From the human T2T-CHM13v2.0 reference genome, Homo sapiens: a stretch of 64,000 nucleotides of DNA. The stretch lies in the NCBI RefSeq assembly GCF_009914755.1, contig NC_060947.1; one strand, written 5' to 3'. Shown here piece by piece: positions 12,495 through 16,519 of this stretch; position 1 is the stretch's first letter, and each line of letters starts with the position of its first letter. The notes beneath the pieces were generated by a model. It saw only the letters and a list, made by a program, of their open reading frames with translations, did not search any database and had not been told where the DNA came from. The position numbers and the translations under genes were made by a program.

Positions 12495-12595
12495 TTTTAA
12501 AAATTTTAATTTCATTTTATGTTTAACTTTAATTTTTAAATTTAATTTTTAAATTTTTAATTAAAAGCACATCACATAAAATCTACCATCTTAAC
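12495..12595 (-). mobile_element. L1MB extreme 3' end (continues at 19356)
   Basis: cacataaaatctaccatcttaac joins to ttaaccacttctaagtgtacagttcag at 19360, rebuilding the L1MB 3' motif. Confidence 0.75.
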
Positions 12596-12649
12596 TTTTT
12601 CTTTTTTATCATTAATTGTTCTATTTCAATAAATGGAAGATTTTTTTTT

Positions 12650-13745
12650 GCAGTAAAGGAAGCATTTAATTGATGCAAGACAAGCCACACCATGTGGGAG
12701 ATGGAGTTATTACTGAAATTAATCTCCCCAAATTCTTGGAGGTTAGGGGTTTTCAAGGACAGTTTGGTACATAAGGAACTAAGGAATGGGGACTGTAGCT
12801 TGTTTGGGAATGAAATCATAGGGGTATGGAAAACGGTCCTTGTGCACTGACTCAGCCTCCGGGTGAGGCTACAGGATCAAGTGAATCATGAGTCAGGAGT
12901 CTGGGTGGGGTCAGTCTGAATGACATCTCAAAAAATAATCTTAGGCTCTATAATAGTGACGGTATCTGTGAAACTCTAATATCTGAGACAGGTCTCAGTT
13001 AATTTGGAAAGTTTATTTTGCCAAAGTTGAAGACATGCCCCCGTGAAACAGCCTTAGGAGGTCCTGACAACATGTGCCCAAGGTGATCAGGGTGCAGCTT
13101 GGTTTTATACATTTTAGGGAGACATGAGACATCAATCAATGTAAGTAAGATGTACATCGGTTCTGTCCAGAAAAGTGGTGGGACAACTTGAATCAGGGAG
13201 GGGGCTTCCAGGTCACAGGCAGGTGAGAGAAAAATGGTTGCACTCTTTTAAGTATCTGATTAGCCTTTCCAAATGAGGCGATCAGATATGCATCTATCTC
13301 AGTGAGCAGAGAGATAACTGAATAGAATGGGAGGCAAGTTTACCCTAAGCAGTTCCAAGCATGACTTTTCCCTTTAGCTGGTTGATTTGGGGCCCCTAAG
13401 ATTTATTTTCCTTTCACTTATCTATAGGAGTAATTGAGGAAGTCACAAATATTGTGACCTCTGGCCACATGACTCCTGAGCAGTAAGGGGATTGTAGAAA
13501 CTATGCCCACATCATTGCATAATTCAAGCCCCTCTTATAATCCTAACCTTGTGGTCTTTCATTAATTTCATGAAGGTGGTTTAGTTTTGGGAAGGGTATT
13601 ATCATCCTTGTTTCAAGGTTAAACAATAAATTACATTTTGCCCCAAATCAGCTTGGTCCTACACCCGGGAATGACCAAAGATAGGTTAGAGATGGAGTCA
13701 AGTATGTTAAATTTCTTACTGTCTGAATTTTGCAAGGTAGTTTCA
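12650..13745 (-). mobile_element. LTR8/LTR8A-type ERV1 3' LTR, cut at its poly(A) site and interrupted by MER4A
   Basis: Minus strand starts tgaaactaccttgcaaaatt...gactccatct; preceded by a polypurine tract; ends ATTAAA + 15 nt + A9. Confidence 0.8.
12967..13418 (-). mobile_element. MER4A/MER4A1 solo LTR
   Basis: Minus strand starts gtgaaaggaaaataaatcttaggggcccc; 4-bp TSD tatc at 12963-12966 and 13419-13422. Confidence 0.85.
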
Positions 13746-16244
13746 ACCATCCCCCACCTTGGGTTTTAGCACACCTCAGTTCTGAGGTGTGAGCTACTAA
13801 GATGGGAAAAAGGACAATGACTACTCTAACTTCTTCCTGCTGATATGGGGCATAGTTAGGGTAGGGGTTGCCCCTAGGGAAGGAGAAGTGAAACCATCTG
13901 ACATTTTTCTGCATGTGTTCGCAGGTGCCTGGCTGAGGTCTCAGGGTCTGCATAATAAAAGTACTAGTACTTTTATCCACAGCTTTAGTATAGCACTTAA
14001 GTGAACAGCAGATTATAAGAGAAATAATAAGGCCTAAGATAAGGAATAAAAGTCTTTGCTTCAGTAGTTCCTGTAGAAATGACCAGAAGTCTTGAGGGAT
14101 CCAGGTGAATGACCCTGATAACCAATTAAATATTGGATCATCAGCAGAGACTCAAAAACAGTGAACAAAGTTGGAATCTAACAACAGGTATACTGTAGTT
14201 TTTCTGAAACAATTTTTCTCTCTTCAGTTCTCCATTTCTACCAAACACAAATCATAATTGGACCTTTTTTGGAAAATAAGTTTTACTCTTATTATAAATG
14301 GCCCAATTATTTGCATAAAGTACAGCAAAATAATTATTTGCCATGTAGCCTTTTTTTTTTAAATGGCTTTGCTGGAATTTTTTTTCTATAAGGAATATCA
14401 GATTAGGCCTTGTACAAGCCTTTTGAGAACAGCCAGGGATTTATCTGTGCCTGCATATGCCTGTGTTAATTGAGTGAATTCCTCTTTTCTCAAGGTCCCA
14501 AGATAACTTGGGGTTCCTGGGCCTGTCAGAAAGTAACTTTCTTTGCTTACCACAAGTTAAGAACCCTGTGAAGGACAAGATGTGAGGCAAGTTTTTCCAA
14601 AGGGCCGTTATCCTCTCTATAGGTCAACCTCAATTTTTCAAAGCAATCTGAAACTATGTCATTTTATTCAAAGCCTTGGTAAAGTAACCAGTGACTCTAT
14701 GTGTGCTGCCAGAAAATAAAACAGATTCTTATTGACCTTATGTAGATAACTACATTGCTACAAGCTAAGAATACTCACAAATAGTTTCCACATTTTGGAG
14801 AAATCAGGTAGAGAGAAATAAACATGATCCAAAGTTTGCTCACAGGTGTAATACATTACTCAATTGTTAAAAGCTGTAAATAGTCCAAAAGAGAAGTTGT
14901 TTGACTCTAAAAAAGATACAAAAAGTATCAGCAATGTTTCAAACAAAAAGTTATAAAAAGGTTATTTTAGTCTTTCATTAGTTCAGTCCATGCAATTAAC
15001 TCCTCTTCTGCTTGATATTCATGAATATATCAGCTTTCTGTGAGTGTCCTGGAAAATTTCCCCTTTATTCCAATAACATAATCTTCAAAGTTATTAGAAA
15101 CTTTTATTCAAGAGCACTTTTCATAGTCCTATAGCTGGATTATAAAGCCACTTTTTGAAAAAATCAAAGTAAACCAACAATTGTGGATGTCAGGAGTCTT
15201 AGGATAGCTACGGTTCAAGTCACACTTGTCAAGGACATTTGGTTAATTTTGTGGCATACAACAATTTAACATAACAATTATAATTACTGACATATACTAA
15301 GTCATATCATAATTATAGCATCTCACACAACTCTGGAACACACACAAATAGCACATTTATACAAATAGAATTTAAAGAAAACCAAACATCATCTTATACT
15401 TGATAATGCCTCCTGTTTGATTTCAACATACCACATAAGCAAAATGTCTCTTTTGAACTTCAGGTAGGCTAATATCTAAACAAGTTAATGAGGTCGAAGT
15501 ACTGAATGTAGAACTTAAAATTTTGATTTTGAAAAGTTTGTTAACTATCAAAAGTTTACAACATTTGATATCACAAAATATGATCACAGGGTTTTCACTT
15601 AGCTGAAACATTAACTCAAAAATTTCAAAAAGACAGAAATCTTTACAAGCTGATAGAAGACTCAGTTTTCTAAGCAACAAGACTCAATAAAAACAGCATG
15701 AGGCCACCTGAATCTGTCTCTTCTCTCTGCCTTTTTCCTTTTTTGCAGTTTACTTAAGAGCAAAGAAAAATATTTTATTGTCTCTCAATATTACACAAAA
15801 TTTATGTTCAAAAGAGAAAGCCAAATTTTACCTCTATGTTAGTATACTATTTATGTTAAACCCAGTTTTTAATAAAGCTTTATAAACAAATCTATCCAAT
15901 TTATCAGTTTGACCATGAGGTAAGATTTTAATAAACCCTCTATATCTTTTTTTAAATAATTTATTAAAGAGCAGATCATTGTTCTAAGGAAACCCTGTTA
16001 TTCTGACACATGGATCCAGATTCTGGCCATGCATCAGTGTGCTTTTTATTTTAATGTTTAATTTACAGGAAAATTAATCCTTAAAAGTTTGGCAAAGTTT
16101 CTTACACCCACAGAACTTCCATTACAAGATCTATATTTTTATAAATGTTTTACAACTTGCTAAAACCTTCAGTGTTGTTCTATCATTCATTTAACTTAGA
16201 ACAATCCTTAAAAACTTCTAAATTAGACAAAATTGCTTTCCCAT
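13746..16244 (-). mobile_element. ERV1 (MER4-group) internal sequence, 5'-truncated
   Basis: Minus-strand ccccatatcagcaggaagaagttagagtagtc motif typical of the ERV1 internal 3' end; contiguous with the LTR; no intact ORF. Confidence 0.7.
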
Positions 16245-16519
16245 TAAATGTAAGATTTTCATACAAAAAGGGGTTTGTAAGCCAATATTTAGATGAAATA
16301 ATAATATAATTTCTCCCTTATGTGCCTATATGCCTGTAGAGAAAACTAGGTCTGAAACATGAATTAAAACTTGGTTTCTAAAGGGTCATTATTTACTGTT
16401 TTCTTTAAGTGAATGGAAGAGTTTAACAAAAAAGGAGTTTTAAAGCCAATGTATACATAAAATTATTAGAAGTTTATTTCTTCTATATGCACCTCTAGGC
16501 CCATAAAGTGATATAGTTA

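What the first reader, a model, noticed from the sequence alone, without database searches (positions are those of the whole stretch)
12630..16259. L1-retroposed ('processed') LTR8-type ERV transcript
Seen: on the minus strand the LTR ends 15 nt after ATTAAA (12665-12670) and runs straight into A9 (12641-12649), with no U5. The internal region stops abruptly at ~16244 with no 5' LTR. The unit is flanked by a 15-bp repeat taaatg(g/t)aagatttt (12630-12644 / 16245-16259) ending in a T-run. Established: integrase makes 4-6-bp TSDs and complete LTRs, whereas poly(A), 5' truncation and ~15-bp TSDs at T-rich nicks mark L1 target-primed reverse transcription (as in HERV-W processed pseudogenes). Inference: an ERV1 RNA was mobilised in trans by L1, which also maps this LTR's R/U5 cleavage site.
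Basis: partly seen in the sequence, partly recalled or inferred. Interest (0 to 1): 0.7.

Follow-up and report, generated by a model that had tools for sequence, protein, structure and literature searches.

The report
Old retrovirus RNA pasted by L1
This 3.6-kb stretch of the human X chromosome is a remnant of an ancient endogenous retrovirus that ends like a messenger RNA, with a poly(A) tail and a 15-base target duplication, so it was likely pasted in by the L1 retrotransposon; several relatives end the same way, which suggests this route, usually credited to HERV-W alone, likely also spread a second, older virus family.

Summary
Confirmed. On the minus strand an ERV1-type internal region (16244-13746) and a U3-R LTR end 15 nt after ATTAAA in A9. 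A 14/15 direct repeat frames the unit and occurs nowhere else in the window. Both refutation tests failed to refute: 27 of 29 LTR relatives carry a U5 that is absent here, and 24 of 24 internal relatives continue past 16244. The element is not alone. A chr3 copy has the full R-U5-internal-U3-R-A-tail form, and an 80-nt R-only copy sits in an Alu. Together they place the start site about 78 nt before the cleavage site. Of 14 internal-bearing loci with a resolved 3' end, 5-6 stop at R (4-5 of 12 without query and this locus), but TSDs were not tested for four of them. The mechanism is known (HERV-W in bulk; HERV-H and HML-2 cases). A review calls HERV-W the sole group so mobilised. The family name (LTR8B-like) is recalled, not tested. 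New member of a known kind; interest 0.5.

The parts
16245..16259 (-). 5' target-site duplication copy. Preceded by TG in element sense (TG|AAAA, one base off the TT|AAAA L1 endonuclease motif).
   Evidence: motif as in PMC5537654
16245..16247 (-). 3-nt microhomology (TTA) between target and ERV RNA at the 5' truncation point
   Evidence: TTA directly upstream of the equivalent position in 15 of 22 relatives
13746..16244 (-). 3' part of an AT-rich ERV1 internal region, 5'-truncated, unspliced and not inverted. Ends in a polypurine tract (about 13746-13758). No Pfam match.
   Evidence: one 2,624-column alignment to the chr3 processed copy at 75%; colinear with a two-LTR copy
13423..13745 (-). 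U3, first part (LTR starts TGAAA at 13745)
13419..13422 (-). 4-bp TSD (GATA) of the nested LTR, upstream copy
12967..13418 (-). Nested younger solo LTR (MER4-type by recall), same orientation, with its own AATAAA at 13012-13017; inferred later integrase insertion
   Evidence: 39 other loci match query 64-514 at 83-87%; none carries the flanking host LTR
12963..12966 (-). 4-bp TSD (GATA) of the nested LTR, downstream copy
12728..12962 (-). U3, second part. Holds two AP-1 motifs (12848-12854, 12889-12895) and a TATA-like TTGAAAA (12750-12756), about 29 nt before the inferred start site.
12650..12727 (-). R region, about 78 nt. Its 5' edge (plus or minus 2 nt) is inferred from the 5' ends of two other A-tailed copies.
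12665..12670 (-). poly(A) signal ATTAAA
12641..12649 (-). A9 in place of U5: up to 2 A templated by the LTR, 4 shared with the TSD
12630..12644 (-). 3' target-site duplication copy

Best explanation
The element is a 5'-truncated ERV copy that ends at the LTR's poly(A) site in an A-tail and is framed by a 15-bp duplication, so it is likely a polyadenylated ERV RNA copied into the genome by L1 proteins acting in trans. Shown: U5, 5' LTR and leader are missing; tail, TSD, 3-nt microhomology and nested LTR are present; sister copies have the same 3' end; one sister starts at R and one consists of R alone. Inferred steps: (1) a provirus of this LTR8-type family was transcribed in the germ line from a start about 78 nt upstream of the cleavage site and was cleaved and polyadenylated after ...CTGC(A), 15 nt behind ATTAAA; (2) L1 ORF2p nicked TTTT/CA at 16259, primed on the tail and copied about 3.1 kb of an RNA of about 7.3 kb; (3) the cDNA joined the target through TTA, and a second nick 15 bp away gave the TSD; (4) later, a younger retrovirus integrated into U3 (4-bp TSD) and collapsed to a solo LTR. 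The age is likely about 40-55 million years (assumed rate). The copy has no upstream promoter and no recognisable protein, so it is likely inert apart from possible LTR enhancer motifs.
For: TSD 14/15, unique in the window and beyond the null. U5 in 27 of 29 relatives but nowhere in the window. Internal sequence continues in 24 of 24 relatives. Exact-pattern scan: 4 A-tailed ends (control 0) against 59 U5 ends (control 0). G000:C3:159605713-159613726 has R-U5-PBS-internal-U3-R-A-tail with no U3 upstream, the mRNA-colinear form defined for HERV-W pseudogenes (PMC5016936 passages); this shows that the family's own transcripts were retroposed. G000:C5:58029606 is R alone, with a 9/9 TSD after TT in an Alu linker whose two halves overlap by exactly 9 nt. 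The C5:70067906 insert interrupts an L1 whose halves overlap by 13 nt (TSD 13/14). The two-LTR copy at C3:40.57 Mb has a 4-bp TSD and complete LTRs, the contrasting integrase signature.
Against: The strictly untemplated tail is only 3 or more A's. The nick site is TTTT/CA, not TTTT/AA. The empty site was not seen: no relatives are held, and the flanks match no held repeat. Two A-tailed sisters follow directly on an L1 3' tail (C11:23409057, C8:74362268) and one is a chimera with non-ERV upstream sequence (C5:70067906), so this poly(A) site was also used by read-through RNAs. The TSD of the full-length chr3 copy is only 7 exact bases, a score that 16 of 150 random pairs reach. No source provirus was found (best relatives 78-81%).
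Confidence: 0.85

Rival explanations
1. Orphan 3' transduction or read-through: an L1 (or a host promoter) upstream of or inside a source provirus read through to the LTR poly(A) site, and 5' truncation removed the L1 part. The L1 machinery is the same, but the RNA would not be the ERV's own transcript.
For: Three sister inserts are of this chimeric type: L1 tail plus U3-R plus A-tail at C11:23409057 and C8:74362268, and a non-ERV 5' part at C5:70067906. A 5'-truncated copy holds no record of where its RNA began.
Against: No L1 sequence lies inside the TSDs here. The chr3 full-length copy and the R-only copy begin at the LTR's own start site, so the trans route is attested in this family.
Confidence: 0.09
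2. An ordinary provirus that later lost its 5' part and its U5 by deletions or by a displacing insertion, with the 15-mer match and A-run being chance in AT-rich DNA.
For: The flanks are 65% AT. One relative (C9:89.24 Mb) has a 237-nt insertion exactly at this site that displaces U5, so a missing U5 alone can mislead.
Against: No U5 in the whole window or in 14 kb beyond its start. The 14/15 repeat sits exactly at both junctions (P about 2.5e-4 after allowing for registers). The 3' end coincides with that of other A-tailed copies.
Confidence: 0.04
3. A DNA-level duplication of an older processed copy, or capture of ERV cDNA at a double-strand break without L1 endonuclease.
For: Microhomology at the 5' junction and a very short tail also fit end-joining (own knowledge).
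Against: No near-identical second copy and no copy sharing the flanks among 40 scored candidates each. Endonuclease-independent insertions usually lack TSDs (own knowledge).
Confidence: 0.02

Closest known systems
HERV-W (HERV17/LTR17) processed pseudogenes (Pavlicek 2002, not held and not read; described in PMC5016936 and PMC5537654, passages read)
   Same: 3' LTR cut to U3-R, 5' LTR cut to R-U5 or lost, poly(A) tail, TT/AAAA-type site, 5-15-bp TSD, frequent 5' truncation, short R (about 90 nt in HERV-W, about 78 nt here).
   Different: Different family: AT-rich internal region without a Pfam match in the 8 ORFs tested, likely older (LTR-LTR K2P 0.19). The processed share is estimated from 14 loci only, against 135 of 213 catalogued for HERV-W.
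Single L1-retroposed HERV-K(HML-2) locus 2q32.1, and HERV-H spliced retrocopies cited there (PMC3590776, passages read)
   Same: ERV RNA inserted with poly(A) and a 13-bp TSD; shows that non-W cases are already in print.
   Different: Those are spliced RNAs and isolated cases; this copy is unspliced over its length and has several sisters.
LTR8/LTR8A/LTR8B, listed with HUERS-P1 in Repbase (PMC5753468, table passage read); MER4-group internal sequences
   Same: LTR about 700 bp with TG...CA ends, 4-bp TSD in the proviral copy, proline-type PBS (recalled), AP-1 motifs as reported for active LTR8B (PMC10113160, passages read).
   Different: The assignment rests on recall; no consensus library was available. 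None of the searches found processed copies of this family described.

Membership tests
L1-processed ERV pseudogene | 3' LTR reduced to U3-R (no U5) | tested here: met
L1-processed ERV pseudogene | poly(A) tail at the cleavage site | tested here: met
   A9, of which 3 or more are untemplated; same site as sisters with A14-A18
L1-processed ERV pseudogene | TSD of 5-15 bp | tested here: met
   15 bp, 14/15
L1-processed ERV pseudogene | TT/AAAA insertion motif | tested here: inconclusive
   TG|AAAA, 5 of 6 bases; perfect TT|AAAA in three sisters
L1-processed ERV pseudogene | 5' end at R-U5, or 5'-truncated | tested here: met
   5'-truncated here; R-U5 start in the chr3 sister
L1-processed ERV pseudogene | empty orthologous site in an outgroup | not testable with these tools
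   no relatives held
Integrase-made provirus | two complete U3-R-U5 LTRs and a 4-6-bp TSD | tested here: not met
   absent here; present in the C3:40.57 Mb copy
LTR8B / LTR8 (Dfam, Repbase) | best match to the family consensus | not testable with these tools
   no repeat library; name recalled; AP-1 motifs present are weak support only
HERV-W | LTR17 with R of about 90 nt and long U5, gag-pol-env internal region | tested here: not met
   U5 is about 66-70 nt in relatives, against LTR17 positions 327-780 (PMC5016936); 0 Pfam hits in 8 of 8 ORFs tested

The most novel reading that the evidence does not exclude
This LTR8-type ERV1 family is a second and older human ERV family that spread in bulk through L1: about a third of its internal-bearing copies are processed RNAs. 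Its LTRs also made roughly 80-nt polyadenylated R-only RNAs that were retroposed. HERV-W would then not be unique, and old retrocopies could be used genome-wide to map start and poly(A) sites of extinct LTR families to the base.
Probability: 0.5. Interest if true: 0.65.

Novelty: new member of a known kind. Interest (0 to 1): 0.5.

Why it matters
PMC5537654 calls HERV-W the sole HERV group specifically mobilised by L1 and says that the determinants limiting this to HERV-W are unknown; PMC5775608 suggests an LTR17-specific signal. A second, unrelated family with a sizeable processed fraction would make that question testable by comparison: germ-line expression during a peak of L1 activity, a short R with a strong poly(A) site, or non-coding RNA free for ORF2p. 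The copies also give base-level U3/R/U5 boundaries for an LTR type now studied as a placental enhancer (if it is LTR8B). They warn that such loci are promoterless and should not be counted or dated as proviruses. The locus itself is likely inert.

Tried and rejected
A looser tail pattern gave 11 hits against 7 control hits and was not discriminating. Of 5 new hits, 1 was an Alu (C3:50104108). Of 12 loci, 5 were not LTR-like (control 5 rows), and 1 of the 4 newly fetched had a full U5 (C9:32280149). Two DNA searches meant to give a second estimate of the processed share were swamped by solo LTRs: none of 40 scored candidates began at R and even the known chr3 copy was not listed; none of 39 others held internal sequence or ran into the tail. 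They neither support nor contradict the estimate. No TSD above the null was found for C1:51329552, C23:84949732 or C2:238112676. Pfam: 0 families for 8 of 8 ORFs. The flanks match no held repeat, so no paralogous empty site could be read. The idea that the nested LTR was already in the source RNA was rejected: no other copy shares its flanks, it is younger (83-87% against 71-81%), and it carries its own sense poly(A) signal. Pavlicek 2002 is not held.

Full report
Observation. On the minus strand, ERV-like sequence starts at 16244 and ends at 12650, 15 nt after ATTAAA, and is followed by A9. The 15-mers at 12630-12644 and 16245-16259 differ at one base, and with at most one mismatch the motif occurs only there in 64 kb. 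The chance per register is 5.7e-7. A junction-TSD score of 12 exceeds all 150 random flank pairs (maximum 9). Four of the nine A's belong to the TSD and up to two are templated, so the strictly added tail is short.

Refutation tests. A search with the LTR's 3' part gave 40 matches; 29 other loci were fetched. 26 of 29 have a U5 of about 66-70 nt right after the position where this copy turns to A. One more has it behind a 237-nt insertion, and two end earlier. No U5 lies in the window (best scores 39-41 against 50-136). A search with the 5' junction gave 42 matches; 29 other loci were fetched. 24 align to within 40 nt of the junction and all 24 run on into shared upstream sequence (scores 88-375, reference itself 600, against 37 for the window's flank); 5 start later. 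The 15-mer is not internal sequence. Only its last three bases (TTA) match, in 15 of 22 relatives, which is a microhomology.

Anatomy. The internal part (13746-16244, about 30-38% GC) aligns in one piece to a chr3 relative, so it is neither spliced nor inverted. None of 8 ORFs tested from this and two related copies matched Pfam. The LTR starts at 13745 behind a polypurine tract. It is interrupted by a 452-bp solo LTR with a GATA duplication (12967-13418). 39 other loci match that LTR at 83-87% and none shares its flanks, whereas relatives of the host element are 71-81% identical. It also has its own sense AATAAA. I infer that it inserted later. A two-LTR relative at G000:C3:40.57 Mb has complete LTRs, a PBS and a 4-bp TSD, the integrase signature. 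Its LTRs differ by K2P 0.186. At an assumed 0.2% per million years per lineage (recalled) this is about 45 million years. The two R copies of the chr3 processed element give 0.154 over only 72 nt. The insertion here is likely 40-55 million years old; this is an inference.

Sister copies. An exact pattern found 4 A-tailed LTR ends (this one included; control 0) against 59 U5-continuing ends (control 0). Looser patterns added candidates. Of 12 other candidate 3' ends fetched stop at R in an A-rich tail and 2 were false (an Alu; a full LTR). The most informative are these. (a) C3:159605713-159613726 starts at R, continues through U5, PBS and about 7 kb of internal sequence, and ends U3-R-A-tail with no U3 upstream; its TSD is weak (7 exact bases after TT). 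(b) C5:58029606 is R alone, about 80 nt, with A9 and a 9/9 TSD in an Alu linker. (c) C8:131630453 is a 1.2-kb internal-U3-R-A14 with a degenerate TSD of about 11-13 bp (7 ungapped). (d) C23:66774535 is a 45-nt R fragment with A14 and a 10/10 TSD into which an Alu later inserted. Copies (a) and (b) were found by their 3' parts, yet begin at the same base within about 2 nt, about 29 nt behind a TATA-like motif. This places the start site and gives R of about 78 nt. Three further copies are chimeric (L1 tail or other sequence upstream), and three have no TSD above the null.

How common. A natural internal-plus-complete-LTR stretch was used as query (40 candidates scored, 74 rows). 24 loci had internal sequence. 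8 have U5 (the query itself, six, one). 5 stop at R in an A-rich tail (this locus, C3:159.6, C6:93.4, C12:68.9, C8:80.7 Mb). 1 stops at R without a clear tail (C7:48.8 Mb). 10 are unresolved (3 with partial LTR, 7 with only a short internal match). That is 5-6 of 14 resolved, or 4-5 of 12 without the query and this locus. For C6, C12, C8:80.7 and C7 only 88-132 nt downstream were seen and TSDs were not tested, so a displaced U5 is not excluded. Two attempts at a second sample returned almost only solo LTRs and were uninformative. Among all LTR ends, solo LTRs included, the share is about 6% (4 of 63).

Mechanism. Shown: mRNA-type 3' end, tail, TSD, truncation with microhomology, and sisters with mRNA-type 5' ends. 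Inferred from established L1 biology (target-primed reverse transcription by ORF2p): nick at TTTT/CA, priming on poly(A), incomplete cDNA of about 3.1 of 7.3 kb, microhomology joining. I put 0.85 on trans mobilisation of the ERV's own RNA, 0.09 on orphan transduction or read-through, 0.04 on deletion of a provirus and 0.02 on other routes.

Comparison with print. PMC5016936 and PMC5537654 (passages read) define HERV-W processed pseudogenes by the same marks and count 135 of 213 loci. PMC5537654 calls HERV-W the sole group so mobilised. PMC5775608 (passages) found none among 130 related ERV1-1 loci. PMC3590776 (passages) reports an L1-retroposed HML-2 locus and cites HERV-H cases, so the phenomenon outside HERV-W is known as isolated cases. 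PMC4724089 (passages) did not separate processed copies from proviruses. PMC5753468 (passages) lists LTR8/8A/8B with HUERS-P1. PMC10113160 and PMC12969887 (passages) treat LTR8B as a trophoblast enhancer. PMC10194239 and bioRxiv 10.64898/2026.04.29.721355 (passages) had nothing relevant. Seven full-text searches (listings seen) showed no paper describing processed copies of an LTR8 or MER4-group family. Pavlicek 2002 was not held; Costas 2002, Goodchild 1995 and Repbase/Dfam notes were not seen, no supplements were opened, and any of these may already mention such copies. The names LTR8B, MER4, MLT2 and the proline PBS are recalled and come from no call.

Verdict. Real, and correctly read by the first stage. 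The single locus is a new member of a known kind. The added value is the family-level hint that L1 spread a second ERV family in bulk, and the base-level map of R; this rests on small numbers. Interest 0.5.

Noticed in passing
L079:90-200 (G000:C5:58029606, -): R-only retrocopy of about 80 nt, from the inferred start site to the poly(A) site, with a 9/9 TSD in the A-rich linker of an Alu. Implies short polyadenylated RNAs from single LTRs and dates the event after that Alu.
   Followed up: partly
L070 (G000:C3:159605713-159613726, -): Full-length processed copy: R-U5-PBS-internal-U3-R-A-rich tail, with a later Alu and an insert in U3.
   Followed up: yes
L078:110-400 (G000:C3:128165780, +): About 230-bp chimeric insert in an L1: starts at the same R base, shortened R-U5, then pieces resembling other LTRs (recalled), framed by a 19/21 CAA-rich duplication; no clear tail.
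   Followed up: partly
L074 (C11:23409057) and L080 (C8:74362268): L1 3' end with tail directly followed by a U3-truncated LTR ending at R with a second tail; transduction or template-switch chimeras.
   Followed up: partly
L073 and L083 (C5:70067906): Chimeric insert (other LTR-like sequence, whole U3-R, A-rich tail) interrupting an L1 with a 13/14 TSD; the L1 halves overlap by 13 nt.
   Followed up: partly
L025 (C9:89.24 Mb): Solo LTR with a 237-nt insertion exactly at the cleavage site, displacing U5.
   Followed up: no
L069:8800-9215 (C2:238112676): A18 behind only about 30 nt of this R sequence, with unrelated sequence upstream; possibly a retrocopy of another RNA that uses this poly(A) signal.
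   Followed up: no
L063:7716-9778 and L064:850-1512 (4-6 kb and 2.5-3 kb before the window start): A second, 72% identical internal remnant on the same strand with a different 3' part, and an LTR related to the nested one in the opposite orientation.
   Followed up: partly
window 16265-16302 and 16429-16466: 38-nt direct repeat (79%) in the 5' flank, 164 nt apart; unexplained.
   Followed up: no
window 12540-12600: Short stretch resembling the 3' end of an old L1M element in reverse (recalled, untested), 30 nt from the 3' TSD.
   Followed up: no
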